The notes beneath the pieces are model-generated. The model saw nothing but the letters and a program-made list of their open reading frames with translations, was not told the origin of the DNA and ran no database searches. A stretch of DNA of 64,000 bases from Clostridia bacterium (GTDB lineage: Bacteria > Bacillota > Clostridia > TANB77 > CAG-508). The stretch's first letter is position 1, and each line of letters opens with the position of its first letter. Positions 319 through 62,100 of the stretch are shown piece by piece. Made by a program: the position numbers and the translations under genes. The DNA lies in the NCBI GenBank assembly GCA_017430135.1, contig JAFRNM010000004.1:5499-69498 (forward strand). Direction: 5' to 3'.

Positions 319-421
319 TTTTTGGGGACACCCTTGAATTGGGGGACACTCTTAAAAATCAAGGTTTTTCAAAAACCTTGATTTTTAAGAGTGTCCCCCA
401 ATTCAAGGGTGTCCCCAAAAA
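319..421. repeat. 103-bp near-perfect palindrome built from two nested inverted pairs of the REP-like unit
   Basis: tttggggacacccttgaattgggggacactcttaaaaatcaaggttttt / caaaaaccttgatttttaagagtgtcccccaattcaagggtgtccccaaa. The halves are exact reverse complements. Confidence 0.9.
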
Positions 422-5740: not shown

Positions 5741-5754
5741 ACTTATCTGTTTTT

Positions 5755-5806
5755 GGGGGACATTTCTCTCAAAATAGAAAAGACTTGATTTTGGAAAGTG
5801 TCCTCA
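5755..5806. repeat. Degenerate REP-like inverted pair between mreD and pbp2
   Basis: gggggacatttctc ... cttgattttggaaagtgtcctc. Confidence 0.5.
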
Positions 5807-5831
5807 AAAGCAAAAAGACTTAAATAGGGAG

Positions 5832-9430: not shown

Positions 9431-9528
9431 CCCGACTTTTTAGCGACTTTTTGGGACACTCTTAAAAATCAAGGTTATTTTGAATTTTAAGAGTGTCCCA
9501 AAAAGTCTTGAATTTTAAGAGTGTCCCA
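9431..9528. repeat. REP-like cluster (1 forward + 2 reverse units) between divergent promoters
   Basis: cgactttttagcgactttttgggacactcttaaaaatcaagg ... gaattttaagagtgtccc (x2). Confidence 0.9.
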
Positions 9529-9574
9529 AAAGTCAAAAGTTACATAAAAAGTTAATGAAATTTCACGAAAAAGG

Positions 9575-19159: not shown

Positions 19160-19228
19160 AACTTTTTGGGACACTCTTAAAATTCAAGGTTGAATTTTAA
19201 GAGTGTCCCAAAAATCAAGAGTATCCCC
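19160..19228. repeat. REP-like cluster (forward + reverse + degenerate unit)
   Basis: ctttttgggacactcttaaaattcaagg ttgaattttaagagtgtccc ... caagagtatcccc. Confidence 0.9.
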
Positions 19229-19301: not shown

Positions 19302-19475
19302 ATATTTAGATTATAATCAAAGAGTTTAAGCTTTAAAAAACTAATATTATCTTTGCGAAATAATTTATAAATTATTCAAAAAATTTTTATCTAAAAAATC
19401 ATGAAAATCCAAAAAACAAAATATAAATTTGACTTACTTATACATTTTGTATATAATATGTATAGGAGGGTCAAA

Positions 19476-20057
19476 ATGAAAAAAACAGATATTTTAAAAA
19501 ATTTTATTGAAAAAAATAATGGAGTATTATTAACAAGTGATGTTGTAAATATGAATATTCATAAGCAATATATAAAAATATTATGTAATGAGGGCTATAT
19601 TAGAAAAGTTGAAAAAGGGGTTTATGTAAAAAAAGGAAAGAACATAAATGATTTCTTTTTATTGCAACAAAGATATAAAAGTGGAATTTTTTCACACAAT
19701 ACAGCTCTGTATTTTTATCACCTAACAGATAGAACTCCTCAAAAAATAGATCTAACATTTAAAAACAAAATAAGGTTACAAAACAAACTTATTAATTCTC
19801 ATTATGTAAAAGAAGAATATTTAAATATTGGATTAACAAGCTTAAAATTTAATGATAATACAAATGTGCAATGTTATGATATTGAAAGGACAATAATTGA
19901 TATTATTAGAGATAGAAATAAAATAGATATTCAGATTTTTAATACAGCAATTAAAGAATACATGAAAATGAAAGATAAAAATTTAATTAGATTGGCTAAA
20001 TACGCAAAAATATTTAAAGTTGAAAAAATATTAAAGCAGTATATGGAGGTTTTATAA
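19476..20057 (+). CDS. abiEi: Type IV toxin-antitoxin antitoxin, AbiEi family (wHTH transcriptional regulator)
   Basis: About 193 aa from MKKTDIL (RBS AGGAGGG). The N-terminal pattern GVLLTSDVV..GYIRKVEKGVYV matches the AbiEi_4 family. 1-nt overlap (TAATG) with the downstream AbiEii gene. Confidence 0.6.
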   Translation: MKKTDILKNFIEKNNGVLLTSDVVNMNIHKQYIKILCNEGYIRKVEKGVYVKKGKNINDFFLLQQRYKSGIFSHNTALYFYHLTDRTPQKIDLTFKNKIRLQNKLINSHYVKEEYLNIGLTSLKFNDNTNVQCYDIERTIIDIIRDRNKIDIQIFNTAIKEYMKMKDKNLIRLAKYAKIFKVEKILKQYMEVL

Positions 20058-31500: not shown

Positions 31501-33700
31501 TAATGTAAACATTGAAGATATAAAACCTTATTATAAAGATAATAGTATTTATGAAATAGGCAAATGTAATCTAAAAAATGTTGCAGAAATTTCTTCATAT
31601 AGTGTAACAAAAAATAATAAAAAATATGCTCATGTAGATTATACTTCAATACCAGGTAATGCAGACATAATAAGATTATTTAATTATACAGCATATAATG
31701 GAGAAGATGATGACGACAAAGCACCAGGCTTAAAAGTAATAAAACCAAGCCAAAGAAATATTACGGGAGTTGTATTTGAAGATGCACCGGTACAATGCGA
31801 GGATAAAAATAACAATGGAATATGTGATTCAGATGAAAAAAATTATGATATTAATAATAGTAAAACAATAGATCCGGGAGAAGAAAGAATTGGTAATGGA
31901 ATTTTAAATGGTCCAATTAAGGCTGATATAGGTTCTGATGGCTATATTTCAGGCATAAAAGTAAAACTTGTAGATTCAGATGGAAATTATGCACAATTTT
32001 ATGATGAGAGCTCACATGCATGGAAAGAACAAACATATGAAATAAGCGGAAGCAACGGAATATTTAAAATGTCAGGCTTTATTCCAGGCGATTATAGAGT
32101 AGAATTTGTATGGGGTGAAGGCGCAGGAGGTAAAGATGTATCTCGTTATAAATGTACAATACTTTCAAATCCAAACATTACAAATAAAGATACAGTTCAA
32201 TATGATGGAGAAATTGAGTACAATGCGGGTTATGATTGGCTAACTGAGAATAAAAATTATTCAGATGCAAAAGATGACTATATAAGAAGGTTGGCAATTG
32301 ACAAGCTTAATCTGAAAGTTGATGATAGCGCTTATGATGGACTAACAGCTTCAGATGGAACAACACCATTATTAGATAAGGTAAATGAATATATAAATAA
32401 ATTCGGTACAGATGGAGAGGACGACAATTCATTGAAATACATGCATTCTTTAACATCTAAGATTTCAATAGAAGTTGAAAAAAATGGTACAAAAGATGCA
32501 CAAGGATATGTTAATTCACCAAGAACTGAAATAGATAAGCTTATAAAAAAAGATAGTGAGATTTCGGCTTTCAAAGGACTTGGCTTCGATATTAAGAAAG
32601 TCGACTTCGGTATTATAGAAAGACCAAAACGTGCAATGAGCGTCCAAAAACGTATCAAATCAATAAAAATCACAACACCAGAAGGAAGACCGGTAGTAAT
32701 TGCAACAATAGGAATAGACGGAAAAGTAAATGCAATAGCTGGAGAACAATATATATCAGGTGGATACAAATTAGGATATTTATATGCACAGATAGATAAA
32801 AACTTACTACAATCTATGAAAGTCGAAGTTGAATACGAAGTAGCAGTATCAGGATTAAGCGAACTAGACTATGATTATGTAGGATACTATTTATATGCTA
32901 TACCAAAGGATGGAACAGAATTGAAGTTAAAAGCAACCAACCTATATGATTATGTAGGAGGAGCAACTATAACAACAGACAGCAAGGATGAAGATAGATG
33001 GCAGAGTGCTGAACTTACAGATGAATATTTAAAAGTTCCAACAGTAGGAGAAATAAATAGTGTTACAGCAACAGAAAAATTGATAATGGATATATTCAAC
33101 TATGTGCCAAGTTGGGACACTCAAAAAGTCGGTAAGCAAAATAGTGAAAAAGAGGTTATAAAAGTTATAGATGAAATGGGACTATATGATAATGTTGACA
33201 CATTGACTAATACAATAACTGCAAAAGAAGCAAAAGAAACACTTGCTAAAATCTATACAAAGCTTATTGATGATTGGGATAATAGCGAATATGAAAACCA
33301 AAATGAATTAAACGAAAAAATAATAAGAGCATTAAAATTAAAGAACAGAGAGGTTGTTCAGGGTGATCCTAATACAAATACATTAGTAAAAGACTATTAT
33401 GAATCAACAGAAACACGTGTAGGAAAAATAAAGATTTCAAAAATAATTTCAAATGGTGAAAATATAGACTTAAATAACGATATAGAAATTGCTTCAGTTG
33501 CAGTAGACACAACACAAAAAACAGGAGCAAATGCAGACCCAACATATGCACCATTATACGATAGAGCAGAATATGTAACAGTATCTCCTGCACAAGGTGA
33601 AGATAAAGATTATGTAGGTAAAGCAATTGTTGGAATAGGAATATTAACTGTTCTAGCATCTGGAATAATACTAATCAAACGCTATGTAAGCTCAAAATAA
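22520..33700 (+). CDS. Giant 3726-aa surface protein: in-frame fusion of paralogs of the 9804 and 14284 genes
   Basis: Signal peptide. The first half is homologous to the 9804 protein, including a PD(E/T)P linker and an internal SISTG + TM + KFK segment at about aa 1335-1365. That is followed by a second hydrophobic signal-like segment. The second half is homologous to the 14284 protein. C-terminal SPAQGEDKDY + TM + KRY tail. Confidence 0.8.
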   Translation: MKEKLNKIRGLIILLLLVVLSANSNLLFSIAKESEQSINTENIVATSNVVLEKYINYESETEKGLLMQYSVDVGTEYKNDENHVPLVATGLLFNAPKVENEFPETVNIIAKSTLLTNGSDEGKDYKFVYRKETGAIAIVTSNNQNEEGNIYEEYKQNAKDSFSIILNYGENAYNSENKERNLSVTGRIVEILNTEEKTRIENSFENTQIVKENISKLVSTKVENTNVYNGYIKSNVVNGTNYETAYKENVQINISKDNLGTQKIDLTQKFINKNGEAIETENIVFKSSKMEKQNILDVLGEEGTLKILDNQEQVLAEINKDTESNEDGTIKIDYPEGTTKITLELSNAIKTGNITIQNEKEIKAEEKNLELSKIQEIYNQDEITNIEIQDSKTEVTIEPSLTTWTNEKQNEVEFKVSLHNNSSKYNLFKNPVIAIQLPEETEKVLLNETATLTNANGLKIKNTEYNTENRTIRVELEGEQTKYLSPALEDGTIIKIPAVIILSNNIESKEIDLKSAYQNENNYTGNTETEVIKNKIILENFNQTLMPENTIQKMTRSLASAAPTSGTEETQENVVPTAQGISISVKPVIGDVTRDTVYEGEFIKYEITATNTTNQDIDNVKILATLPEGVTYGELVREDHEPFVESYYDFEKQLQPIEIGTIKAGKTESSYFEVKVNDLADGENNKNITTKIQAFVGDGLIDEKEITHQANKAEYKVFLSSYVYRAHVFKYKLKIIGEGTEKQNVKISLPECMEAYKLENEDYSDSDAMTFENVSEVSANLAPGNYLIYANVNSNKIPYQKGKASTEVKAVATINDIYKSNENRIYLEYEAVTIKMSSDNEGKLVKYGDEVNYKIDITNIGKSNYGSENSSYIQVVLTDKLPEQLIPIEATYNYYVINRDYDANNTESIPYTEKTDGKYSLTDKEVDENGNEKSFKINQLYIPYGKTITIQIKAKANIVYDKMVISNEAVVSQESLVMYGTTYNTPINPIVSNKISHTIVPLNYKESNIPDEPDTPDTPDEPGTPDTPDTPDEPGIPDTPDQQEVKKYNINGYVWNDKNEDGEKQNDEQSLSGIQTYLLNAKGDIAKETKTDNNGNYIFADIENGEYNVVFKYNTNQYRITKYKVSRVSESANSNATKQEVVINGEKITAGVTEQITLNKDIENINLGLIENKKFDFKVDNYISKITVKTKNGTTEIPYSNANLAKAEINAKEIEGAVVTVEYKIVVTNNGEINGTVGRIIDYIPEGVNLTQDMTSEWINNNDGSYVNNSLANKIIKPGKSEEITLKITRELTENSTGLYKNSVKIDSIKNQLEIEELSLQNNTSNADFIISISTGALTYILFIVLIISIIVIVLNYKFNIINKFKISILTIIGSIFIVIIMQVSYPSKAADIDWSKYSETRHIYLTAAHISEGDRLRDTKETLTGIIYSDSHKVNLHTKWYLKFFGSDLYEIPSRHSTKEKGNVIEYNMDTSDIYQLINNYNFDTGASISRSENVVFFNHDWRAFFELDDDAGEKIYYQDGEYYLDGTPRFFGRCIDETKDGGPFAINITNLGWDAEILVRNNVYDYNVNAYYPIYATWTCTGNWWDLYYDGDGEYGYFVENETPTPEFNITGNGNETIRIKDFDNSNYLIGPFSITRNDQNTDYTFEIIGSNGNIGQSDFLTCDANGNYKRVKGRCPEFYLKVNKNKIKNINRILKVELTTEDVEYTYDCDITAVGKKIYSCPGYQEVAGDTPYIPFEPEQRKIHSNYEWNYFPGAITIQKSDEIGKDENGNTLSMEGINFIVNKFKDGWAVYDNQGNITYGDIDSNHKPVIFTTDATGRTQTIVGFDTVSNTTVALEDGTTKEIMQNIDGSTYMAFEIIDDNYNGDGNYYGLPNDDRHLSDYYKATYSAGQLWGCPYSLKSLGNGNLKNFDGSNDSVYDDFDMSRQYYNPDTYPVEYFGEFLNGNSPIHFIYSGEFETFNVTNTRDYVSLQIDKKDHYNGTFDNNYAGIRFKVCKLDEDGTYKWVHKVNPSDPHSEVTYGSFNGAYELTTDKYGKTGVLKKLDNGGTYWIVETYIPPQLEEYYTLHSANDVYRVAGSNSTLYKYFFDQYNIDLKDSQNRDNKIKLLSSTSNEFTLLQPKKIYVKKPQGETATNVVDTGYGKFSWQGWNPRDYFAIQIYKQNERNTNGNTTHDPLNDIEFAILEESKDSTESNYKGGWVATDNNGIYNSSLIPNYDSISNIRTARYITGENGENGYTRMVRRIPMPPLGQVKKYSIFEINASDYEDLYKLGQFRFNGTLKDGKCIETITINNEFKKDLWKEPTRTTNTNVKIYNVKLVNYTNIQDYGSLQIQKVDELTKTPLNNIGLRIRMQTGKWLIINDKKSGVINSNDTSKKEVTGFTDDIYEATEIRTNAQGYTDTIYKVPIDGYQMMNTYSAYETYIPENLRSYYALNSDFTKYAPSNCTAAQYRSFENAAIYELKATTVRSYLNTINSLRSQAGAAPIANLALTDVARLVAYGKITRDIDKNDITKPVITEFEAQNEQNYINISGYVWEDAKPAGKVTDIDNKRSSIGTGEYKDKNLNNITVKLVKRINGASLTITSVVTGSIKDSNNNPINGYYRFEKLKLKDLANYYIEFTYDGITYESVVPEYTTENARLDVKKYITNTNSWVDATRTVQIPNSKTSKATEVASGRDALNNAFGEIKGEGQTINYKNSNITLKYTTKNEIVYLDNTYAPYLTTSGANTTVDNTKSYNYLITSRIDEYQSGRTVLEYFYNYMANNQTALGTDGYENNRKTLLTEIPNLNLGLYRREQPNLTLQKDVYKAEMQINGKKYVYRYDRVLEKDPANYSEVEQNTGILGVNFDGRYTLPMYEADMFYGDESAYSPTVSNTVSDDEKLKASVTYKIKLQNTASELDTKIHEIHEVYSKEYSIARNASNKPLIYLIDKPNATNADFNEENRINIIENTTTYKLDKNYTIGTAYKESNIRFETPITIEKHSGNNVRYLYIVFNVNIEDIKPYYKDNSIYEIGKCNLKNVAEISSYSVTKNNKKYAHVDYTSIPGNADIIRLFNYTAYNGEDDDDKAPGLKVIKPSQRNITGVVFEDAPVQCEDKNNNGICDSDEKNYDINNSKTIDPGEERIGNGILNGPIKADIGSDGYISGIKVKLVDSDGNYAQFYDESSHAWKEQTYEISGSNGIFKMSGFIPGDYRVEFVWGEGAGGKDVSRYKCTILSNPNITNKDTVQYDGEIEYNAGYDWLTENKNYSDAKDDYIRRLAIDKLNLKVDDSAYDGLTASDGTTPLLDKVNEYINKFGTDGEDDNSLKYMHSLTSKISIEVEKNGTKDAQGYVNSPRTEIDKLIKKDSEISAFKGLGFDIKKVDFGIIERPKRAMSVQKRIKSIKITTPEGRPVVIATIGIDGKVNAIAGEQYISGGYKLGYLYAQIDKNLLQSMKVEVEYEVAVSGLSELDYDYVGYYLYAIPKDGTELKLKATNLYDYVGGATITTDSKDEDRWQSAELTDEYLKVPTVGEINSVTATEKLIMDIFNYVPSWDTQKVGKQNSEKEVIKVIDEMGLYDNVDTLTNTITAKEAKETLAKIYTKLIDDWDNSEYENQNELNEKIIRALKLKNREVVQGDPNTNTLVKDYYESTETRVGKIKISKIISNGENIDLNNDIEIASVAVDTTQKTGANADPTYAPLYDRAEYVTVSPAQGEDKDYVGKAIVGIGILTVLASGIILIKRYVSSK
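25548..25641 (+). repeat. In-frame PD(E/T)P proline-rich tandem repeats (9/18-bp periodicity)
   Basis: ccagatgaacca / ccagatacacca units encoding PDEPDTPDTPDEPGTPDTPDTPDEPGIPDTPD. Confidence 0.85.
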
Positions 33701-36195: not shown

Positions 36196-36255
36196 ACTTT
36201 TTGGGACACTCTTAAAAATCAAGGATGGAATTTTGGGACACTCTTAAAAAGTTTG
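36196..36255. repeat. REP-like cluster (2 forward units) upstream of tatD
   Basis: ctttttgggacactcttaaaaatcaagg ... ttttgggacactcttaaaaagtttg. Confidence 0.9.
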
Positions 36256-36276: not shown

Positions 36277-37056
36277 ATGGAATTTTTTGATTCACACTCT
36301 CATTTAAATGATGAGAAGTTTGACGAGGATAGATATAATTTAATAGAGCAATTCAAAAAAGAGAATATAACAAGATTTTTAACGTGTGGCTATAATTTAG
36401 AAGGGTCAAAAAAAGCAATTGAGATAGCAGAAGAGTGCGATTTTACTTATGCAACAGCTGGTATTTCTCCAAATGATATTCCACAAAATGAAGATGAATT
36501 GTGGAAAGAAATCGATGAAATTGAAGATTTAGCTAAAAATAAAAAAGTAGTTGCAATAGGTGAAATAGGGTTAGACTTCTATTGGAACAAAGAAAATAGA
36601 GAACTTCAGCTAAAAGCTTTTAAGAAACAAATAGAAATTGCAAATAAACTAAATCTGCCAATAGTAATTCATACAAGGGAAGCTGTGATGGATACTTTGC
36701 AGGTATTAAAAGAAAACAATGTGATAAATAAAGGTGTTTTTCATTGTTGCCCATTAAATAGAGAACTGGTAAAAGAGGCATTAAAACTAGGTTTCTACAT
36801 TTCATTTTCAGGAGTAGTAACATTTAAAAACGCCAAAAATGCAGAAGAAATAATAAATATGGTTCCACTAGATAGAATTCTAATAGAAACAGACAGCCCA
36901 TACTTAGCGCCAGAACCAGTCCGTGGAACAAGGAATACACCAATAAATGTAAAATTTATAGCGGGAAAAATTGCGCAAACAAGAAAAATATCAATAGAAG
37001 AAGTCGCAAAACAAACCTACGAAAATGCTTGTCGACTTTTTGGACTCTTGGGATGA
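36277..37056 (+). CDS. tatD: TatD family metal-dependent DNase/hydrolase
   Basis: 259 aa. N-terminal FDSHSHL and the conserved TatD fold motifs. The 3' end runs into a REP-like repeat cluster. Confidence 0.9.
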   Translation: MEFFDSHSHLNDEKFDEDRYNLIEQFKKENITRFLTCGYNLEGSKKAIEIAEECDFTYATAGISPNDIPQNEDELWKEIDEIEDLAKNKKVVAIGEIGLDFYWNKENRELQLKAFKKQIEIANKLNLPIVIHTREAVMDTLQVLKENNVINKGVFHCCPLNRELVKEALKLGFYISFSGVVTFKNAKNAEEIINMVPLDRILIETDSPYLAPEPVRGTRNTPINVKFIAGKIAQTRKISIEEVAKQTYENACRLFGLLG

Positions 37057-37186
37057 CTTTTTTGGCGACTTTTTGGGACACTCTTAAAAATCAAAACTTT
37101 TTGGGACACTCTTGATTTTCAAGGGTGTCCCAAAAAGTCTCCCCAAAAGTCATCCTTGATTTTTAAGAGTGTCCCAAAAAGTTTGT
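37030..37186. repeat. REP-like cluster (4-5 units in both orientations) overlapping the tatD 3' end
   Basis: cgactttttggactcttggga tgacttttttgg cgactttttgggacactcttaaaaatcaaaactttttgggacactcttgattttcaagggtgtccc ... ccttgatttttaagagtgtcccaaaaagtttg. Confidence 0.9.
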
Positions 37187-39220: not shown

Positions 39221-39295
39221 TTTTTTTGGGGGGAAACTTTTTAAGAGTGTCCCAAAATTCCAGCCTTGATTTTTAAGAGTGTCCCAAAAAGTTTG
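39221..39295. repeat. REP-like cluster (2 reverse units) upstream of the AI-2E transporter gene
   Basis: ctttttaagagtgtcccaaaattccagccttgatttttaagagtgtcccaaaaagtttg. Confidence 0.9.
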
Positions 39296-52439: not shown

Positions 52440-52440
52440 A

Positions 52441-52468
52441 AAAAGACGAGCAATGCTCGTCTTTTTTA
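52441..52468 (+). terminator. Terminator after rpoC
   Basis: aaaagacgagcaatgctcgtctttttt. Confidence 0.9.
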
Positions 52469-52484
52469 AATTAACTTTTTAGAA

Positions 52485-52575
52485 TTTTGGGATGGAATTT
52501 TGGGACACTCTTAAAAATCCAGACTTTTTGGGACACTCTTAAAATTCTAAACTTTTTAAGAGTGTCCCAAAAAGT
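52485..52575. repeat. REP-like cluster (2 forward + 1 reverse unit) between the rpoC terminator and the TA/RAYT islet
   Basis: gggacactcttaaaaatcc ... ctttttgggacactcttaaaattc ... ctttttaagagtgtcccaaaaagtt. Confidence 0.9.
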
Positions 52576-52579
52576 TAGA

Positions 52580-52634
52580 TGTCGAATTTTGTCGAACGAT
52601 TTATGTTGACAAAATGCAAAAAAAGTTATATGAT
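52580..52634 (+). promoter_or_regulatory. Second copy of the conserved promoter module upstream of the AbrB/PIN TA pair
   Basis: TGTCGAAttttGTCGAAcgatttatgTTGACA, 17 nt, TATGAT. Confidence 0.5.
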
Positions 52635-52759
52635 TATGACAACTTTAGAATCTTTATTATTTATTTTCTAAAAAATTCCCAAAAAATATTGATAAAATTC
52701 CAAAAATATCATATAATATAAGTAAGGAAAGTAAGGAATGTAAGAAAAGAGGTGATACT

Positions 52760-53017
52760 ATGGAATTAGCAAGAGTAACTACAAAAGGACAGATAACAAT
52801 TCCAAAATCAATTAGAGAAATGTTAAACATAAAGGAAGGAAGTCAAATAATATTTCTTCAAAAAGGAAATGACATAATAATAAAAAATTCAGCTATGATA
52901 GCTTTAGAAAAAATACAAGATGCATTTGAGGGAGAAGCGGAAAGATTAGGATTAGAAAACGAAGAAGATGTAGTAAAGATGATAAAGGAATTTAGGAAGA
53001 GCAGAAAGAAGGAATAA
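52760..53017 (+). CDS. AbrB/MazE/SpoVT-family antitoxin
   Basis: 85 aa. Contains VTTKGQITIPKSIREMLNIKEGSQI, a SpoVT/AbrB swapped-hairpin domain. The stop abuts the PIN gene start. Confidence 0.7.
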   Translation: MELARVTTKGQITIPKSIREMLNIKEGSQIIFLQKGNDIIIKNSAMIALEKIQDAFEGEAERLGLENEEDVVKMIKEFRKSRKKE

Positions 53018-53018
53018 C

Positions 53019-53420
53019 ATGAAAGTAATGCTAGACACTAATATTCTAATATCAGCATTTATTTTTAAAAGTAATAAAATGAATAATTTAATTTATGAAT
53101 TATCAAAAAAACATGAAATTGTTATATGTTCATACACGATAGAAGAATTAAAGGAATTATTTGAAAATAAATTTAATGTTAGTCTAAAAACATTAAATTT
53201 ATTTTTGAAAAATTTTCCTTTTACATTGGTAAAATCACCTAATAATCCACAAGAAAATCTTTTCAATATTCGAGATAAAGATGATTATATAATATTATAT
53301 ACTGCGATAGTTGAAAATGTGGATGTTTTTATAACGGGAGATAAAGATTTTGATGATGTTGAAATTAAAAAACTGGAAATTTTAAAACCTTCAGAATTTA
53401 TTCAGAAATATTTAAATTAG
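53019..53420 (+). CDS. PIN-domain (VapC-like) toxin
   Basis: 133 aa. Starts MKVMLDTNILISA with later acidic residues, consistent with a PIN nuclease. Sits 2 nt after the antitoxin. Confidence 0.65.
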   Translation: MKVMLDTNILISAFIFKSNKMNNLIYELSKKHEIVICSYTIEELKELFENKFNVSLKTLNLFLKNFPFTLVKSPNNPQENLFNIRDKDDYIILYTAIVENVDVFITGDKDFDDVEIKKLEILKPSEFIQKYLN

Positions 53421-53500
53421 ATTTTTAAATCTTAAATAAAAAATTAAGTCATAAATAAATTCCAAAATAATATTGATAAAATTATGAAATAGGAGGAGTA

Positions 53501-54262
53501 ATGCCTAGAATAGCGAGAAAAAGTATAGAAACGCCATTTTTGCATGTAATGGTTCAAGGCGTGAATAAGGAATATATCTTTAACAATGATGAATATATAA
53601 AGATGTATTTAGAATTAATTGAAAAAAATAAAGTTGAATATGATGTCACAATACTGGCGTATTGCGTAATGAATAATCACGCGCATTTTTTAATGTATAT
53701 AGAAGATAAGGAAAAATTTGGTAAATTCATGCATCAAATTAATTTTAAGTATGCCAAAATGTATAATAAGATTGAGAAACGATGTGGAGTTTTGTTCAGA
53801 AACAGATATCAATCTGAACAAATATGTGATAGAAAATATTTGATTAATTGCATAAAATACATACATGAAAATCCTGTAAAGGCGGGAATAGTTAGGGACG
53901 CAGGGGATTTTAAATATTCTTCATATAATAATTATATAAATAATGTTGGTGAATGTCAGAGTCCAATTATGAAAGAAATTTTTGGAGAAAATTGCGATTA
54001 CCAGAAAATCTTCAAAAAAGTTCAAGATATGAGATTTATGGATAATGAAAAAAAACGAGATGATTTAGAATATTACATGAAAGCGGCTATAAATGAATTT
54101 ATGGTTATAAATAAAGTAGATCTTGTTGACATATTTGCAGATAGAAAGATTTTGAAATTGATGATAAGAGATTTAAAGAAAAAATACAATTATAGTTATG
54201 CGGAAATTTGTGAATTCTTCGAAATAACAAAAAGCAGGTTGGAGAGTTTAAAAAAAATTTAA
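53501..54262 (+). CDS. IS200-like Y1 HUH transposase, REP-associated tyrosine transposase (RAYT)-like, with a C-terminal extension
   Basis: 253 aa. HuH motif NNHAHFLM and a C-terminal catalytic-Tyr motif IKYIHENPVKAG (YIxNP). No IS ends or tnpB. Flanked by REP-like repeat clusters (52485-52575 upstream, 54266-54340 four nt downstream). The last ~100 aa are extra and possibly an HTH. Confidence 0.65.
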   Translation: MPRIARKSIETPFLHVMVQGVNKEYIFNNDEYIKMYLELIEKNKVEYDVTILAYCVMNNHAHFLMYIEDKEKFGKFMHQINFKYAKMYNKIEKRCGVLFRNRYQSEQICDRKYLINCIKYIHENPVKAGIVRDAGDFKYSSYNNYINNVGECQSPIMKEIFGENCDYQKIFKKVQDMRFMDNEKKRDDLEYYMKAAINEFMVINKVDLVDIFADRKILKLMIRDLKKKYNYSYAEICEFFEITKSRLESLKKI

Positions 54263-54265
54263 TAT

Positions 54266-54340
54266 TGAATTTTAAGAGTGTCCCAAAAATCAATTTAACC
54301 TTGAATTTTAAGAGTGTCCCCAAAATCATCCCAAAAATCA
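54266..54340. repeat. REP-like cluster (2 reverse units) 4 nt downstream of the RAYT stop
   Basis: tgaattttaagagtgtccc ... ccttgaattttaagagtgtcccc aaaatcatcccaaaaatcaa. Confidence 0.9.
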
Positions 54341-54519: not shown

Positions 54520-54530
54520 GGAGGTTGGAA

Positions 54531-55775
54531 ATGGAAATTAAAAGAGATTTTTATTTAAAAAAACTTATAGAAGGATTAGATAATGGACTTGTAAAGATTG
54601 TTACAGGAATTAGAAGATGTGGTAAATCATATCTATTAGATCCAATATTTAAAAACTATCTTTTAGAACAAGGAGTTAAAGAGAATCATATAATAAAATT
54701 AGATTTAGATGAAAGAGAAAACTTTAAATATCATAATCCAGATGAATTAAATAAATATGTAAAAGACAGAATTATTGATAAAGATAAATATTATGTTATT
54801 CTTGATGAAGTTCAAAAGGTTGAAGAGTTTGAATCTGTTTTAATAGGTTTTTTGCATATGAAAAATGTAGAAATATATGTTACAGGAAGTAATTCAAAAT
54901 TTTTATCATCAGATATTATTACAGAATTTAGAGGAAGAGGTTCTGAAATAAAAGTATATCCTCTTACGTTTAGTGAATATTATTCTGTATATAATGGTTC
55001 TGAGGAAAAGGCATTAAATGAATATTATACTTATGGAGGATTGCCATTGTGTATTCTAGCAAAAACGGATGATGCTAAAATTAGCTATTTAAAGGAACAA
55101 AAAGACAATGTTTATTTAAATGATATTGTTGAAAGAAATAAAGTACAAAATCAAGAAGAACTAGAAATGTTGGTTCAAATAATTGCATCTAACATTGGTT
55201 CACTTACAAACCCTTTGAAATTATCAAATTGTTTTAAAGAAAGAGATAAATCATCCACAATGACTGATAAAACTATCTATAATTATTTAAAATATTTACA
55301 AGATGCATTTATGATAGAAAAAGCACGAAGATTCGATGTAAGGGGAAAGAAATTTATAGAAACACCACAAAAATATTATTTTACTGATATGGGAATAAGA
55401 AATTCTTTTTTGGATTTCAGACAAAGCGAAGAGATATCACATACAATGGAAAATGTTATATATTTAGAACTAAGGAAGAGAGGCTATAATGTTGATGTTG
55501 GTTCTGTTGAGATAAGAGAAGGAGATAAAAAGAAACAATTAGAAATTGATTTTGTTGCAAATAAAGGCAATAATAAAATTTATATTCAATCTGCTTTGGA
55601 AATGAAAACAAAAGAAAAAGTTGAACAAGAACAAAAATCTTTAATAAATGTTAATGATTTCTTTAAGAAAATAATAATTGTAGGTGATAACATAAAAAGA
55701 TCTAGGTATGATAATGGTATTATTATAATGAGCATATATGATTTCCTTTTAGACCAAAGTAGTTTGGAATACTAA
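54531..55775 (+). CDS. AAA+ ATPase with DUF4143 (ATP-binding protein, defense-island associated)
   Basis: About 415 aa. Walker A GIRRCGKSYLL and Walker B YVILDEVQ. C-terminal DUF4143-like region. The promoter is bracketed by two 38-bp palindromic repeats. Confidence 0.75.
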   Translation: MEIKRDFYLKKLIEGLDNGLVKIVTGIRRCGKSYLLDPIFKNYLLEQGVKENHIIKLDLDERENFKYHNPDELNKYVKDRIIDKDKYYVILDEVQKVEEFESVLIGFLHMKNVEIYVTGSNSKFLSSDIITEFRGRGSEIKVYPLTFSEYYSVYNGSEEKALNEYYTYGGLPLCILAKTDDAKISYLKEQKDNVYLNDIVERNKVQNQEELEMLVQIIASNIGSLTNPLKLSNCFKERDKSSTMTDKTIYNYLKYLQDAFMIEKARRFDVRGKKFIETPQKYYFTDMGIRNSFLDFRQSEEISHTMENVIYLELRKRGYNVDVGSVEIREGDKKKQLEIDFVANKGNNKIYIQSALEMKTKEKVEQEQKSLINVNDFFKKIIIVGDNIKRSRYDNGIIIMSIYDFLLDQSSLEY

Positions 55776-55832: not shown

Positions 55833-55860
55833 CTTGATTTTTAAGAGTGTCCCAAAAAGT
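55833..55860. repeat. Single REP-like unit (reverse)
   Basis: cttgatttttaagagtgtcccaaaaagtttg. Confidence 0.85.
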
Positions 55861-56030: not shown

Positions 56031-56100
56031 ACCTTGAATTTTAAGAGTGTCCCCAAAAGTTAAAGGCAACCTTGAATTTTAAGAGTGTCCCAAAAAGTTT
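56031..56100. repeat. REP-like tandem pair (2 reverse units) upstream of the giant surface protein gene
   Basis: caaccttgaattttaagagtgtcccc aaaagttaaagg caaccttgaattttaagagtgtcccaaaaagtttg. Confidence 0.9.
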
Positions 56101-56130: not shown

Positions 56131-59100
56131 ATGAAATTGCCAAATTGTTTGAAGAATTTGAATTCTAGGAAGGGAAACGAAAAGGGTAGTGTTACTTTGT
56201 TCGTTCTTATTGCGATGCTATTTTTCCTTATGATTGGTATGATGATTTTTATTATCAACATGAATACTGAAACTTCGCAAAAAAGAGATGTGGAGAAGAT
56301 TAAAAGTGAATATAACGCAAACACAAGCGAAACAGACCTAGATCAATTATACCAAGAAGCTAAACAACGTCAAATAGGCACTTTTATGATTAAGTTAATA
56401 GACAAGTATGGCACAATTTATAACAGTGGCGAGTGGGTTAATGAAAAATGGCTAGCAGAAGGCAGATTACCATTAACAGTGCAACCAAACTTTCCAGAAG
56501 GTTTGAAAGATATTAGTGTTACGGTAAAAGACGATACATATGGTGGTTCTACTATTATAACAAAAACAGCAGACTTAGCTACAATGGAAATTAGAGCTGA
56601 TAAGGATTGCCAATACACAATAGAAAACACTTTAGATAATACAAATCAAGTAAAAATTAACATAGATACAACAAAGCCAACAATTGATGAACTAAAAGGT
56701 GGAACAATTTGGAAAGGAACAGAGGAAGAAGAAATTACTGGAACAGACGCAGGTGGAACAGTAACTATAACAGCAAGAGATAACTTAAGTGGAGTAAAAG
56801 AATTAAAATATATAATAAATAATAGTCCGGAAGCTCCATCAGCAGATGCTGAGTGGACAACAGTAGAAGGAGCAACAGCACAAGTTACAATAAATAATGA
56901 AAATGATTTAGGAGTATACTACATTCATGCAATGGCAACAGATGTTGCAGGAAATGTAAGAGATGTAGTAACATCAGGACCATATGAGGTAAAACAAGCA
57001 AATTACAAAATTACAACAACAACAGGTACAACATATTCAGAAACATTAAAAGACGCAGCAGAAAAACCAGGAGCAATGGTAATAAAAGTATTAAATACAT
57101 TTACAGATGAAGTACCTGCAACAATAGCACAAAATGTAACAATAGACACAAATGGTAAAACATTAACAATGGCAGAAACAATAACAGTAGCAGGTGGTGC
57201 AACAACAACATTTGTAGGTACAGGAACAATACAAAGAAATGTAGCAGATGGAGTTAGAGGAGATTTAATAACAAATAATGGAACAGTTGTAGTTGGTGTT
57301 GAAAATTCAGACAATGGGCCAACATTAACATCAAAAGATGTTGTTATTAATAATGGTACTGTAACAGTTTATAGTGGGAATATAGCATCTCAAGGACAAT
57401 CCGTTTTTGCTCCTAATGCAGGTATTTATAGTAAAACTATAAATGTTTATGGGGGAAATATTACAAATGATAGTGGCGCTTATGGAATAGTTATTAATCT
57501 TGCTGGAATATGTAATATAACAGGAGGAAGAATAACAGGAAACAAAGCAATTTGCCCTCAAAATGGAACTTTGAATATAAGTGGTTCAGCTACAATAGAA
57601 GGAAATGCCGCAATAGGTAGTTCTGCTAGTACGAACCATAATTATACATTAAATATAAGTGGAGGTGTAATTAGATCAACAAGTAGATTTGCAATAAATG
57701 CAGATACACCAGAAACCAATATTACAATAACAGGTGGAACTATAACAGGTGCAACAGATGGTATTAGTATTACAGGCGCAAACAGTACATTAACAATAGG
57801 AGACAACACAAATGCTCTAAATAGAGAGTCACCAGTAATTACAGGAACAAATGGAAAAGGAATAAACATAGCAGGTGCAACATCTACATTAAATTATTAT
57901 GACGGAACAATAATAGGAAAAACAAAAGGAACAAAAACATTTAATGGAAGAGAAGTAGCATTCAATGTAGCAAACGACACAACTGTAAACTTCCTAACAG
58001 AAACAGAAGAAGGAAATGTAACAAGATATTACAGACCATATACAAGAGAAAATACACAAACACATTTATTTGAAACAGTATTAGAAAAACAAGTAAATGT
58101 AACATTTAATCCAGGCGAAGGAGCAACAGTTGCAGAAAGCAATAGAAATGTATTGACAAATGTGGAATACAAAGAAAAAGCAGAAGATGCAACAATAGTA
58201 TCATTACCAACACCAGAAAAAACAGGGTATACATTTAAAGGATGGAATGGAAAAAACTTGTTGAACTTGGCAGGAAGAACTGAACAATATATTGGAGCTT
58301 GGTCAAATACAGCTAAGAGAAACTTTACAGGTAATGGAATTTATAAAGGATTAGCATCTAATAATTACTATATTCAAACAAATGCAAGTTATGAAATTAA
58401 CGAAAACACTAATACGGTTAAGGTTACAAGCTATAATGATGGATATGGTGTGGGATTTGATGTAAGAGTTAAGCCAGATACTCAATATACGTTAAATAAT
58501 TCTGATAATAATGTTAGAGCAGCATTATATAAATTTGATGGAACGTTTACTAAAAGTGTTACAGGAAGCTTTACAACGACACAAGATACATATTGGTTAG
58601 TTATAGTTGTAATTTCAAATAAAGGTATAGAAAACATAGCTTCTAACATCCAACTAGAACAAGGCTCAACAGCCACACCATACGAACCATACTACATCAC
58701 GGACGAAACAAAAGTAGTCCAAGACCAAGACCACACATTAAATGCAATATGGGAAGCAAATGAATACACAGTACACTTCAATGGAGATGGTTCAACAGCA
58801 GGAACAGTAGAAGACCAAAAATTCAAATACGACGAAGAAAAAGCATTAAATGAAAATAAATTTGAAAGAAAATACACAGTAACATATGACGGAAACGAAG
58901 GAACATCAGCAAAAACAGATGATACAGCAACATACACATTTGCAAACTGGATAAATAAAACAAATAACTTAACATACCAAGACAAAGCAGTAGTTAAAAA
59001 CCTTACATCAGAGCCAAATGGCGAAGTAACACTATACGCAGTATGGACACCACATGAAGTAACATTACCAACAGCAACAAGAGAAGGATACATCTTCAAT

Positions 59101-62100
59101 GGTTGGTACGATGCAAAAACAGGCGGAAACAAAATAGGAAATGCAGGAGACAAATACATCCCAGAAGCAAACACAGAACTACATGCACAATGGAGACAAG
59201 TGCATTACACAGTTTCAGTAGGAGAAGAAACTCTTCCAGCTGAAACTCTAGCAGAAGCAGTAGGACTTGCAGAAGAGAGAATAACAGGGGCAGTAACAAC
59301 TGCAACAATTACGCCAACAATGAGTTATGCAGATAGCTCAACAGCAACAATAAGTAAAAACATAACATTAGATTTAAAGGGTAATACACTAACGATGTCA
59401 AACACAATAACAAATAAAGGAACATTAGAAATAAAAGATACAGCAACAGGTGGAACAATAACAAGAGCAGGAGATGTTATTACAAATAATGCAAGTACTT
59501 CTATAGTAACAGTAAAAAGTGGATCAATAACTGCAACAAATGGAATTGCTATAAAAAATAATTCAACTGGTACTATAAATGTAAGTGGCGGAACAATATC
59601 AGGAGGAAATGGAATTTACAATAATGCAAATGGTACAATAAATGTTAGTGGAGCAACTACATCAATTACAGGAACAACAGACCAAGGTATTAGAGGACTC
59701 TCAGGAAATGTTACTGTATCAGATGGAACAATAACAGGGGCAACAAATGGAATTGCTGTTAGAAATGATGCAAATAATAATTCAGGTTCAATTATAATAA
59801 CAGGTGGAACAATAACAGGAAATCAATATGGTCTATATGCAACTGGAAATGCAACAATTACATTAGGAAATAATGATGGAACTGTAAGTAAGATATCACC
59901 AGAAATAATATCAAATGCAACAAGTTCTCATGCAGGTGTATATACAGACGGTAATACAACATTTAATTTCTATGACGGTAAAGTAGTTGCAAGAGATGGT
60001 TGGTCATTGAATACAGTCAATTTAAACAAACCAGACCATTATCAAGTAGTTAAGAGAACAGACAATGGCAAAGAAACTGCAGTTCTTGAAAAAGAAATTA
60101 CAGTAACATTTGAACCAAACCCAGGCAATACAACAGGTGGAACAGTTTCAGAAGCATCAAGAAAAGTATTAACAAATGTAGAATATCAATACGATGCAGC
60201 TGCTGGAACAAACAGAACATTGCCAACACCAACAAAAACAGGGTATACATTTAAAGGATGGCAACCAGCTGACAATCTAATTTCAACAAATCCAAGTGAT
60301 TGGCAACAAGGTGGACTTGCTGATGTAAATGGAGTAGAGGGTGACAGAACAACAAGAATAAGAACAGATTATATAAGAGTTTCTCCAAATACGAAATATA
60401 AACTTAGTGTTAATAATTCAAATGGTATATTTATAAGATATGTATGGTTTTATAATAATGAAAAGTCATATATTGATAAAATTGAAGAGCATCATATAAA
60501 TAATACGGAATTTACTACGCCAAATGATTGCTATTATATTAGAACAGTTTTACAATATAATAATATTAATGGTGAAACTGATATTACTCCAAGCAATGTT
60601 ACAGATGCCAATATTTATTTAACAGAAACAGTAACTGATTCAACAATTGTTACACAAGACCAAGACCACACTTTAAATGCAGTATGGGAAGCAAACCCAT
60701 ATACAGTAACATTAAATGCGGGAGATAATGGAACAATAGATGCAGGAGATGACGGCTGGGCAAGAGCTGGAGATAACAAAACAGCAACAAAAGACATAAC
60801 TTACGATAGTAATTATGGAACATTACCAACAGCATCAAGAACAGGTTACACATTTGAGGGATGGTTCACTGAGGCAACAGGTGGAACTCAAATAACAGAC
60901 ACAACAAAAATGCAAACAGCAAGTGCTCAAACACTTTATCCACATTGGACAGCAAACAACTACACAGTAACAGCCAACGCAAATGGTGGAGCAATAGCTT
61001 CAACAACAGGTTGGTCAGGTACAGGAGAGTCAGCAATAAAACAAGTTACTTATGATAGCGCTTATGGTACATTACCAGAAGTAACAAAAACAGGGTATAC
61101 ATTCAAGGGATGGAATGGAAAGAATTTGTTTGAGTTAAAAGAAAATGTTGATTGGAAATTGGGAGCGACAACATACAATGTAAATACATCGGAAAATAGT
61201 ATAAGTATTGATACTAAAGGTGGCTGGGGACTTGTGCAATATTATTTACCAGTATTAAAGGCAAACACAACATATACAATAAGTGGAAATGTTGAATTAA
61301 TTAATCATACTTCTACATATGTAAGAATTTCAAAGGAAAGAAACAAACAGAATGGCAATATATTTATCTTCCGAAATGATACATTAAGTGATGGATATTT
61401 TAGTTCAACGTTTACAATTGGCGAAAATGATGAAACAACAGCAAGTCTATGCTTATATGGAAACCTAGGTTCTAATGAAGAAACTGGGGCAATATTCAGC
61501 AACATCCAAATCGAAGAAGGCTCTACAGCCACACCATACGAACCATACTACATCACAGAAGATACAAAAGTAACAACAGCATCAGACCACACATTAAAAG
61601 CAGTATGGGAAACAATACCTTATACAATTTCTTATGAATTGAATAAAGGTACAAATAATAGTAGTAACCCAACTGGTTACACAGTAGAAAGTGAAAACAT
61701 TACATTACAAAATCCAACAAGAAATGGTTATACATTTATTGGATGGACAGGAAGTAATGGTGATACACCACAAACTACTGTTACAATTCCAAAAGGTAGC
61801 ACAGGAAATAGAACATACACAGCAAATTGGGAAGAAAAAACTTATACATTGACAATTAAGCCAAATGGAGGTGCAGTAGATGGTTCTACAACAGATGTTG
61901 TAAGGAACTTAAAGTATTCTGATGTTTCTAACATAAATGACCCTACTAGAACAGGTTATTTATTTGGCGGATATAATGAGTTGAGTGGAGCTGCCTTTAG
62001 TAATGAATTAGCAAGTATAACAAGATATTCTAACTCAAATCTAACACAAATTACAATTGCACGACAAGAAAAAAGTGCAGATAACCCAATTTCTGGTATG

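What the first reader, a model, noticed from the sequence alone, without database searches (positions are those of the whole stretch)
52485..54340. REP/BIME-like intergenic repeat family with a cognate RAYT-type Y1 transposase in a low-GC Firmicute
A 22-26-nt unit (CGAC)TTTTTGGGACACTCTTAAAA(A/T)TCAAGG occurs in both orientations in at least 13 intergenic clusters across 64 kb: 319-421, about 5755, 9431-9528, 19160-19228, 21190-21259, 36196-36255, 37030-37186, 39221-39295, 52485-52575, 54266-54340, 55833-55860, 56031-56100 and 63788-63845. Units are usually paired into hairpin-forming inverted arrangements. The only transposase-like gene in the window (53501-54262) is an IS200-like HUH/Y1 protein (HAH motif, C-terminal YIxNP tyrosine motif). 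It lacks IS ends and tnpB, and is directly flanked by two of these clusters. That is the arrangement defined for REP-associated tyrosine transposases (RAYTs). RAYT/REP systems are characterised mainly in Proteobacteria. This would be a distinct family with a longer unit and no obvious 5'-GTAG, and with a RAYT carrying a ~100-aa C-terminal extension that is possibly HTH-like.
Basis: partly seen in the sequence, partly recalled or inferred. Interest (0 to 1): 0.8.

Follow-up and report, generated by a model that had tools for sequence, protein, structure and literature searches.

The report
Clostridial TIRYT gene with amplified repeats
A rumen Clostridia genome carries a single domesticated-transposase-like gene bracketed by inverted copies of a 28-base repeat that is also scattered between neighbouring genes; this is a new example of an already described but never experimentally tested system (TIRYT/TIRtron).

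Summary
The core GGGACACTCTTAAAA occurs 25 times (0.28 expected) in 13 clusters, all intergenic. ORF 53501-54262 is a Y1/HUH protein whose best solved relative is E. coli TnpA-REP.

The protein aligns from residue 1 with the TIR-associated tyrosine transposases (TIRYTs) of Di Nocera 2013, which are TnpAY1 subclass 2.1 (Quentin 2018) and Bertels group 1. It scores 60-99 bits against them and 17-34 bits against canonical RAYTs. The repeat carries their published GGGGWSAS motif instead of GTAG. The C-terminal 107 residues form a lineage-specific helical domain; its best fold matches are DnaA domain IV and ParB-type HTH domains (modest Z).

In 48 of 57 homologous loci the gene is bracketed by GGGAC upstream and GTCCC downstream (0.4% in mock placements). 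The repeat sequence and its hairpin stem change with lineage.

Relatives show 0-7 dispersed copies per roughly 20 kb. This genome has 21 in 64 kb, so the family is amplified here. An AbrB/PIN toxin-antitoxin pair lies between the upstream repeats and the gene.

Genome-wide spread and enzymatic mobilisation remain untested.

Verdict: real, a new member of a known kind, moderately interesting.

The parts
52485..52575 (.). Upstream repeat cluster of the TIRtron. It holds a partial unit (TTTTGGGATGGA), two + oriented units (cores at 52502 and 52530) and one - oriented unit (52554). The last two form a 23-bp hairpin. It lies just after the rpoC terminator (52440-52467).
   Evidence: aligns with the reverse complement of the downstream cluster
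52576..52759 (+). Leader/promoter region (TGTCGAATTTTGTCGAA ... TTGACA ... TTGATA-17-TATAAT). It is conserved with the closest relative, L109, although the genes that follow differ.
52760..53017 (+). AbrB/MazE-type antitoxin gene, cargo between the upstream repeats and the Y1 gene
   Evidence: MazE_antitoxin 46.5 bits; AbrB family 55.5 bits
53019..53420 (+). PIN-domain toxin gene (PIN_3 / TIGR00305), second gene of the cargo pair
53501..54262 (+). TIRYT-type Y1/HUH gene (253 aa). The HUH/Tyr core spans residues 1-~146: N59-H60-A-H62, catalytic Y120 in YIHENP, S140-S141 tail motif. Residues ~147-253 form a lineage-specific helical C-terminal domain with weak HTH-type fold matches.
54266..54340 (.). 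Downstream repeat cluster: two - oriented units (cores 54270, 54306) plus an outer partial unit (TCATCCCAAAA). It is the inverted image of the upstream cluster.
322..418 (.). Dispersed cluster: two nested inverted unit pairs, about 50-bp perfect hairpin (RNA MFE -95 kcal/mol)
5745..5812 (.). Degenerate inverted pair (TTTTTGGGGGACATTTCTC ... GGAAAGTGTCCTCAAAA)
9450..9530 (.). Dispersed cluster: an inverted pair plus one extra - unit
19165..19212 (.). Dispersed cluster: inverted pair, 55 nt after a giant surface-protein gene
21197..21262 (-). Dispersed cluster: two - units in tandem
36200..36249 (+). Dispersed cluster: two + units in tandem between two genes (44 nt after a stop codon, 28 nt before the tatD start)
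37072..37178 (.). Dispersed cluster: four units forming nested hairpins (-73 kcal/mol)
39239..39288 (-). Dispersed cluster: two - units in tandem, ending 29 nt before the start codon (39317) of the AI-2E transporter gene
55839..55856 (-). Single - unit, 64 nt after the AAA_14/DUF4143 gene
56039..56094 (-). Dispersed cluster: two - units in tandem, 37 nt before the 2474-aa surface-protein gene
63793..63838 (.). One intact - unit (core 63821) facing a degenerate + unit

Best explanation
Region 52485-54340 is a 'TIRtron'. It holds a single-copy chromosomal gene for a TIR-associated tyrosine transposase (TIRYT; TnpAY1 subclass 2.1; Bertels group 1). The gene is bracketed by inverted copies of its cognate ~28-nt repeat, which carries a GGGGWSAS-type motif, here (T/G)GGGACAC. 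In this Clostridia genome the same repeat is amplified into a REP/BIME-like family of intergenic singletons, tandem pairs and inverted pairs.

Proposed mechanism, inferred by analogy with E. coli TnpA-REP and IS608/ISDra2 TnpA:
1. The HUH/Tyr core binds the unit as folded single-stranded DNA, for example at the replication fork. It reads the conserved GGGAC motif at the top of the 5' arm or loop.
2. It cuts through a covalent Tyr120-DNA link and rejoins strands. This copies or rearranges units.
3. The gene itself stays put.
4. The C-terminal domain, if it is an HTH as the fold matches suggest, probably adds duplex-DNA binding to the same repeats, for targeting or autoregulation.

Shown here: the anatomy, the family membership, the conserved gene-repeat linkage and co-variation across lineages, and the local amplification.
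Inferred only: catalysis, the single-stranded substrate, and the claim that the enzyme causes the amplification.
For: Repeat family:
- 25 core hits against 0.28 expected, all intergenic.
- The units flanking the gene are inverted images of each other over about 75 nt.

Protein:
- Pfam Y1_Tnp 40.5 bits. NCBIfam REP_Tyr_transpos 77.1 bits (cutoff 80). All 40 family members hit that model; only 11 hit the IS200 model, and weakly.
- 4er8 (TnpA-REP) is the only significant PDB sequence hit and the best fold hit, ahead of IS608 and ISDra2 TnpA. The AF2 model has pLDDT 86.
- The family profile scores 60-99 bits over residues 1-150 against published TIRYTs. It scores 17-34 bits against canonical RAYTs.
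- HUH, Tyr and the SS motif are invariant or nearly so in 40 homologues.

Linkage between gene and repeat:
- 48 of 57 distinct homologous loci have GGGAC within 400 nt upstream and GTCCC within 400 nt downstream. Mock placements in the same loci give 0.4%.
- Repeat sequence differs by lineage. Stems of >=9 bp enclosing the motif occur in 30% of 184 distinct units, against 4.9% of shuffles, and the stem sequences are unrelated between lineages.
- Lineage-specific units also occur away from the gene in about 15 loci.
- The closest relative (71% identity) has GGGACACCCTAAAAA units. That variant is also a minority form in the window.

Literature:
- TIRYT/TIRtron, GGGGWSAS, amplified TIR families in dimers or clusters (PMC3733652).
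- Subclass 2.1 features (PMC6006769).
Against: - No enzymatic test exists for any TIRYT, so the mechanism is by analogy only.
- Single units in this genome have weak hairpins (at best about 7 A-T pairs). This differs from many relatives and from canonical REPs.
- Ten strain-level contigs (99.8-100% identical) show no gain or loss of units, so there is no sign of current activity.
- The 9.4 kb to the left of the window has no unit. Genome-wide spread is extrapolated.
- Quentin et al. found no REP-like structures for subclass 2.1.
Confidence: 0.8

Rival explanations
1. The repeats are duplex-DNA binding sites for the C-terminal HTH-like domain (or for another host protein). On this view the Y1-HTH protein is a domesticated DNA-binding or regulatory factor. 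The flanking sites are autoregulatory operators. The dispersed copies spread by other means or mark a regulon or nucleoid-organising sites, and HUH catalysis plays no part in their spread.
For: - A conserved C-terminal domain is always fused to the core, and its best fold matches are duplex-binding HTH domains (DnaA domain IV, ParB, KorB).
- In many relatives only the two flanking sites exist.
- The upstream site sits at a fixed 110-280 nt, next to the promoter.
- Several dispersed clusters lie 28-37 nt before start codons.
Against: - HUH and the catalytic Tyr are invariant in all 40 homologues, which suggests selection on catalysis.
- Stems co-vary, which points to a folded single strand rather than a duplex operator.
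- Many clusters lie just after stop codons, and many are tandem or inverted multimers typical of REP/BIME amplification.
- 22 of 25 cores are identical, which suggests recent copying.
Confidence: 0.12
2. The locus is an autonomous IS200/IS605-type insertion sequence. The gene plus its ends moves as a unit, and the dispersed repeats are its non-autonomous MITE/PATE derivatives.
For: - The gene sits in different neighbourhoods in different species: after rpoC here; next to uvrA, addAB, gap or Big_2 genes elsewhere.
- It is bracketed by repeats and carries cargo (a toxin-antitoxin pair) between the repeats.
Against: - The Y motif is Y-x-x-x-N-P, not the Y-x-x-x-Q of IS200 transposases. The window protein has no hit to the NCBIfam IS200 model.
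- There is one copy per locus everywhere. The exact protein lies in the same context in all places shown, from 16 contigs.
- The flanks are inverted copies, not the asymmetric left and right ends of IS200/IS605.
- There is no tnpB.
- The published subclass 2.1 has low copy number and low identity between copies.
Confidence: 0.06
3. The repeats are an independent intergenic repeat family, for example RNA elements or terminators, that lies next to the Y1 gene by chance.
For: Repeats occur next to many unrelated genes in the window. No biochemical link has been demonstrated.
Against: - The gene-repeat bracket recurs in 84% of homologous loci against 0.4% of controls, with lineage-specific repeat sequences.
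- The units lack a downstream T-run, and rpoC has its own terminator before the cluster.
- There is no Rfam match.
Confidence: 0.02

Closest known systems
TIRYT / TIRtron (Di Nocera, De Gregorio & Rocco 2013, PMC3733652). Examples: S. maltophilia ORFs 1152 and 4509, G. bemidjiensis gbm_2474, P. carbinolicus pca_3049, D. audaxviator dau_2153. Equivalent to TnpAY1 subclass 2.1 (Quentin et al. 2018, PMC6006769) and Bertels group 1 (PMC5581495).
   Same: - N-terminal MPR-x-AR ... H-V-x-Q-G-x-N motif, N-H-u-H, Y-I/V-x-x-N-P and the SS tail motif.
- About 220-250 aa with a C-terminal HTH-like domain.
- 27-32% identity over residues 1-150, aligned from residue 1.
- Gene bracketed at a fixed distance by inverted repeats carrying GGGGWSAS.
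- In some genomes the repeats are amplified as singles, dimers and clusters.
- Low gene copy number.
   Different: - The C-terminal 107 aa has no sequence similarity to the published TIRYT tails or to Pfam Bac_DnaA_C, HTH_23 or HTH_28. It is confined to 111 clusters among 1.84 billion representatives.
- HUH is H-A-H, and Ala is not among the listed 'u' residues.
- The W motif is F-R.
- The host is an uncultured rumen Clostridia lineage.
- Across the clade the repeat is a hairpin with a co-varying stem, whereas Quentin et al. found no REP-like structure for subclass 2.1.
- A toxin-antitoxin pair lies inside the bracket.
E. coli TnpA-REP (RayT/YafM, PDB 4er8) with REP/BIME elements; REPIN-RAYT systems of Pseudomonas
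   Same: - A single-copy Y1/HUH gene bracketed by inverted copies of a short repeat.
- The repeat is dispersed in intergenic DNA as singles, inverted dimers (REPIN-like) and clusters (BIME-like).
- This is the closest solved structure.
   Different: - No 5' GT[AG]G. The residues that read GTAG in 4er8 (W94, Q95 and others) align with F99 and R100 here.
- The score is just under the NCBIfam equivalog cutoff (77.1 against 80).
- The protein is 90 aa longer, with an extra domain.
- Tandem direct pairs are as common as inverted pairs.
IS200/IS605 transposases (IS608 and ISDra2 TnpA)
   Same: HUH/Tyr fold. Recognition of DNA hairpins is the expected mode of action.
   Different: - Y-x-x-x-Q in those proteins, Y-x-x-x-N-P here.
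- They are multi-copy, with asymmetric ends and often a tnpB partner. None of that is seen here.

Membership tests
TIRYT / TnpAY1 subclass 2.1 | Y1 core with N-H-u-H and Y-[IV]-x-x-N-P motifs | tested here: met
   N59-H60-A61-H62 and Y120-I-H-E-N124-P125. H60, H62, Y120, N124 and P125 are invariant in 40 homologues and align with the HUH and Tyr of 4er8. 'u' = Ala is unusual.
TIRYT / TnpAY1 subclass 2.1 | Closer in sequence to reference TIRYTs than to canonical RAYTs | tested here: met
   The family profile scores 60-99 bits (positions 1-~150) against 11 TIRYTs from Di Nocera's Additional file 5. It scores 17-34 bits against RAYTs including E. coli b228.
TIRYT / TnpAY1 subclass 2.1 | Proximal tail 'SS' motif after the core | tested here: met
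   Y139-S140-S141-Y142. S140 is invariant and S141 is >=90% conserved. Table 1 of PMC6006769.
TIRYT / TnpAY1 subclass 2.1 | C-terminal HTH domain (Bac_DnaA_C, HTH_23 or HTH_28-like) | tested here: inconclusive
TIRYT / TnpAY1 subclass 2.1 | Gene bracketed by inverted repeats carrying GGGGWSAS | tested here: met
   Window units read (T/G)GGGACAC; the upstream cluster holds + oriented units (plus one inverted unit) and the downstream units are - oriented. 48 of 57 homologous loci show the same bracket, against 0.4% of controls.
TIRYT / TnpAY1 subclass 2.1 | Low copy number of the gene per genome | tested here: inconclusive
   One copy in the window plus 9.4 kb. The exact protein lies in the same context in all places shown, from 16 contigs. 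The whole genome was not available.
Canonical RAYT / REPtron (TnpA-REP, subclasses 2.2 and 2.5) | Cognate REP has a 5' GT[AG]G at the foot of the hairpin | tested here: not met
   No GTAG or GTGG in the unit consensus acTTTTTGGGACACTCTTAAAAaTCAAg. The conserved motif is GGGAC.
Canonical RAYT / REPtron (TnpA-REP, subclasses 2.2 and 2.5) | Protein reaches the NCBIfam REP_Tyr_transpos equivalog cutoff | tested here: not met
   77.1 bits against a cutoff of 80.
Canonical RAYT / REPtron (TnpA-REP, subclasses 2.2 and 2.5) | Inverted cognate repeats flank the gene, and the same repeats are dispersed in many intergenic copies | tested here: met
   25 units in 13 intergenic clusters over 64 kb. Genome-wide count not testable.
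IS200/IS605 insertion sequence (TnpA-IS200, subclass 1.1) | Y-x-x-x-Q motif and a match to the IS200 transposase model | tested here: not met
   The motif is YIHENP. The window protein has no hit to NF033573 at E<=0.01; 11 of 40 homologues hit it only weakly (best E 1.4e-4).
IS200/IS605 insertion sequence (TnpA-IS200, subclass 1.1) | Multiple near-identical copies; asymmetric subterminal hairpins | tested here: not met
   A single copy, with flanks that are inverted images of each other. The whole genome was not examined.

The most novel reading that the evidence does not exclude
The GGGGWSAS 'terminal inverted repeats' of subclass-2.1 Y1 proteins would in fact be REP-like single-strand hairpins. 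Their stems co-vary across more than 40 Clostridia lineages. They can be amplified to REP-like density (about 0.4 units per kb) in a Gram-positive genome. This runs against the published conclusion that subclass 2.1 has no REP-like structures.

The bracket may also act as a small platform that holds exchangeable two-gene toxin-antitoxin cassettes between a conserved promoter/leader and the Y1 gene. The window carries AbrB/PIN there, and the 71%-identical relative carries DUF4160/DUF2442.
Probability: 0.3. Interest if true: 0.55.

Novelty: new member of a known kind. Interest (0 to 1): 0.4.

Why it matters
No TIRYT (subclass-2.1 Y1 protein) has been studied biochemically. Their role and the status of their flanking repeats are open questions.

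This clade offers a compact comparative data set:
- dozens of gut and rumen Clostridia lineages, each with a single gene and its own co-varying hairpin repeat;
- one genome in which that repeat has multiplied.

That gives defined substrate and enzyme pairs for cleavage and binding tests. It also shows that REP-like amplification is not limited to Proteobacteria.

For annotation, the protein is currently labelled only 'transposase' in the NCBI MAG. The repeats also break metagenome assemblies at these sites.

Tried and rejected
- Genome-wide count. A scan of 185,579 species-representative genomes with the 19-mer TTTTGGGACACTCTTAAAA gave only 9 single matches. None lies next to a homologue. One unit-like copy is in a buffalo-rumen Clostridia MAG. 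The window's species is therefore not represented, or no representative has the amplified family. Viral contigs gave 0 matches.
- Extending the window. The left side added 9.4 kb with no unit. The right-edge look-up failed because the exact product is not on record.
- Insertion polymorphism among strains. Ten contigs are 99.8-100% identical. The only difference in a unit is one SNP, with no gain or loss.
- C-terminal domain by sequence. No credible Pfam, NCBIfam or PDB match. Foldseek against PDB was not significant. The afdb50 library was unavailable.
- Terminator or known RNA reading. No Rfam family and no tRNA in the window. The units lack a T-run.
- IS200 reading: rejected on motifs and models.
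- PHROGs gave only a weak hit to a family of unknown function.
Full report
**Observation**

The window has 30.4% G+C and about 89% of it lies in long ORFs. The 15-mer GGGACACTCTTAAAA occurs 25 times at <=2 mismatches, 22 of them exact. Shuffles give 0.28 expected.

The one at ~5750 is a degenerate pair. Every unit lies between ORFs.

The clusters fall into these types:
- Inverted pairs that fold into 20-50 bp hairpins: 322-418, 9450-9502, 19165-19212, 37072-37178, 52527-52571.
- Tandem direct pairs: 21197/21245, 36200/36232, 39239/39271, 54270/54306, 56039/56077.
- Singletons: 55839, 63821.
- One degenerate pair at ~5750.

Most clusters sit 8-66 nt after a stop codon or 28-37 nt before a start codon. 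They lie among ordinary chromosomal genes: mreBCD, PBP2, minC, tatD, RNase III, rpoB and rpoC, and giant surface proteins. rpoC has its own terminator (52440-52467) before the cluster. No Rfam family or tRNA overlaps the repeats.

**The gene**

ORF 53501-54262 encodes 253 aa.
- Pfam Y1_Tnp scores 40.5 bits (residues 15-124).
- NCBIfam REP_Tyr_transpos scores 77.1 bits against a cutoff of 80, and there is no IS200 hit.
- In an alignment of 40 homologues, H60, H62, Y120, N124 and P125 are invariant.
- A profile search of PDB sequences finds only 4er8 (E. coli TnpA-REP), with HUH and Tyr aligned.
- The AlphaFold model (pLDDT 86, pTM 0.81) matches 4er8 best (E 2.9e-6, TM 0.66 on the target). IS608 and ISDra2 TnpA follow.

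It is the only copy in the window. The exact protein is recorded on 16 contigs from several rumen samples, and every place shown has the same context. The source is an NCBI MAG labelled 'Clostridia bacterium', where the protein is annotated 'transposase'.

**The bracket**

The downstream cluster starts 8 nt after the stop codon. The upstream cluster lies about 930 nt before the start codon. An AbrB/MazE antitoxin gene and a PIN toxin gene (52760-53420) lie between them.

The two clusters are inverted images of each other over about 75 nt. Each has an outer partial unit (TTTTGGGATGA) and two full units. The GGGACAC strand is the + strand upstream and the - strand downstream.

**Relatives**

The protein has at least 442 homologues. 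The best 120 have about 232-292 aa and nearly all cover 99-100% of the query, and those that carry a source name come from Clostridia MAGs. I fetched 6 loci by exact look-up and 80 from metagenomes.

- In 48 of 57 distinct loci with both flanks available, GGGAC lies within 400 nt upstream and GTCCC within 400 nt downstream. Typical distances are 110-280 nt upstream and 12-100 nt downstream. Mock placements in the same loci give 0.4%.
- The repeat differs by lineage. Examples are AACTTTTGGGGACACTTCCCAAAAGTT, GGTGTTTTTGGGGACACCTTTCAAAAACACC, TTTTAGGGACGCGTCCCTAAAA, ATGATTTTGGGGACGGAGCAAAAAATCAT, ATGAGACAGTAGGGACAGGTCTTAATTGTCTCAT and TGAACTTTGGGGACGTTCTTTAAAGTTCA.
- Only the GGGAC core is constant. 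It sits at the top of the 5' arm or in the loop of a hairpin whose stem sequence changes.
- Uninterrupted stems of >=9 bp enclosing the motif occur in 56 of 184 distinct units. After shuffling the 3' half the figure is 4.9%.
- About 15 loci also carry their own unit away from the gene, with 1-7 such copies per locus. The window has 21 in 64 kb.
- The closest relative (71% identity, L109) has GGGACACCCTAAAAA units. The window holds a few GGGACACCCTTGAA variants.

So the gene-repeat linkage is a property of the clade. The repeat co-evolves with the gene, and this genome shows an unusually large amplification.

**What it is called**

This arrangement is published.
- Di Nocera et al. 2013 (PMC3733652) described RAYT-like genes flanked not by GTAG REPs but by inverted repeats. 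These lie at a roughly constant distance from the gene and share GGGGWSAS. The authors named them TIRYTs and TIRtrons. They noted that some TIR families are moderately abundant and organised in dimers or clusters, and that some TIRs are self-complementary.
- Quentin et al. 2018 (PMC6006769) placed 20 of those 26 TIRYTs in TnpAY1 subclass 2.1, which equals Bertels group 1. Its features are a median length of 238 aa, NHuH, Y[IV]xxNP, an 'SS' tail motif, a C-terminal HTH related to Bac_DnaA_C, HTH_23 or HTH_28, and low copy number. They found no REP-like secondary structures for it.
- Bertels et al. 2017 (PMC5581495) noted group 1 in Clostridia, associated with only modestly repeated 16-mers.

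I rebuilt the TIRYT and RAYT sequences from Di Nocera's Additional file 5 and scored them with the family profile.
- The main TIRYT group scores 60-99 bits, aligned from residue 1 to ~150. It includes gbm_2474, pca_3049, dau_2153, sml_1152, sml_4509 and pfs_148A.
- Canonical RAYTs score 17-34 bits, and E. coli b228 scores 23.

The window unit (T/G)GGGACAC fits GGGGWSAS. The protein is therefore a TIRYT of subclass 2.1, not a new family.

**C-terminal domain**

Residues ~147-253 have no Pfam or PDB sequence match. A profile of this domain finds only 111 cluster representatives among 1.84 billion. All are either ~250-aa proteins with the domain at 148-251 or fragments.

**Mechanism**

Nothing here tests catalysis. 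The following rests on published work on TnpA-REP and on IS608 and ISDra2 TnpA, cited from my own knowledge. The likely action is binding of the unit as a folded single strand, reading of the conserved motif, Tyr-mediated cleavage, and strand transfer.

- The residues that read GTAG in 4er8 align with different residues here (F99, R100). That fits a different motif.
- Invariant catalytic residues and co-varying stems favour this view over a pure duplex-operator role.
- The duplex-operator role remains the main rival. The C-terminal domain may be an HTH, and many relatives have only the two flanking sites.
- An autonomous IS200-like element is unlikely on motifs, copy number and end structure.

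**Limits**

- Genome-wide spread could not be shown. The 19-mer gave only 9 singletons among 185,579 representative genomes and none in viral contigs.
- The 9.4 kb to the left of the window has no unit.
- Ten strain contigs show no gain or loss of units.
- Indirect support for high copy number: contigs from other assemblies end inside or next to the clusters, at about 298, 410, 52543 and 54326.

**Verdict**

This is a new, well-documented member from rumen Clostridia, with a strongly amplified repeat family, a lineage-specific C-terminal domain and a toxin-antitoxin cargo.

Noticed in passing
window 52576-53500; L109 1-965: The closest relative (71% identity) has a different two-gene cassette, DUF4160 + DUF2442. 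It sits where the window has AbrB/PIN: after a conserved leader (TGTCGAATTTTGTCRA ... TTGACA ... TATAAT) and before the Y1 gene. DUF4160/DUF2442 also lies just downstream of the Y1 gene in L015 and L016. This may be cassette exchange at the locus.
   Followed up: partly
window 52672-52705 and 53458-53485: A promoter-like segment of about 30 nt, AAATTCC(C)AAAA.AATATTGATAAAATT, occurs before the toxin-antitoxin pair and again just before the Y1 gene. The second copy lacks a -10 box. The Y1 gene is probably co-transcribed with the toxin-antitoxin pair.
   Followed up: no
L032, L038, L064 (flanks of the Y1 gene): There are two tiers of repeats. The units nearest the gene on both sides are a second type (TTTTGGGGACAGGT, no hairpin). 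The hairpin-type units lie outside them.
   Followed up: no
L082, L086, L087, L091, L093, L095, L098, L100-L102 (human gut, ~40% identity): This lineage has flanking inverted repeats without GGGAC (TGGCAATTTATTGCCACTGGTTCCGGGTTT, with its own small hairpin). The motif is therefore not universal in the clade.
   Followed up: no
window, all unpaired units: Units that are not part of an inverted pair are 11 on the - strand and 3 on the + strand. GC and AT skews are positive throughout and most long ORFs (29 of 32 in the ORF map) are on +, so + is probably the leading strand. At cluster level (7 against 2) the bias is not significant.
   Followed up: partly
window ~298, ~410, 52543, 54326: Contigs from other samples' assemblies start or end inside or next to repeat clusters. 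The repeats break metagenome assemblies.
   Followed up: partly
window 19401-20911: There is a second toxin-antitoxin-like pair: an AbiEii nucleotidyltransferase toxin (20057-20911) preceded by a 218-aa ORF with no Pfam match. Repeat clusters lie on both sides of it (19165-19212, 21197-21262).
   Followed up: no
window 9804-19110, 22520-33700, 56131-63555: Giant surface proteins of 1495, 1608, 3726 and 2474 aa. The 2474-aa protein hits Pfam Flg_new and holds long internal DNA repeats (for example 60728-60993 and 62573-62838, 92% identical). P/T/E/D-rich tandem linkers lie at 11878-11976 and 25534-25659.
   Followed up: no
L020 2340-2400 (Clostridia MAG RGIG8360, buffalo rumen): A single well-formed unit (ACTTTTTGGGACACTCTTAAAAAACAAGG) lies in another rumen Clostridia genome that otherwise lacks the family.
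   Followed up: no
window 54525-55775: An AAA_14/DUF4143 ATPase gene lies immediately downstream of the TIRtron. One strain contig (L005) has an 11-nt indel relative to the window, and in it the called product is 399 aa instead of 414; the position of the indel was not determined.
   Followed up: no
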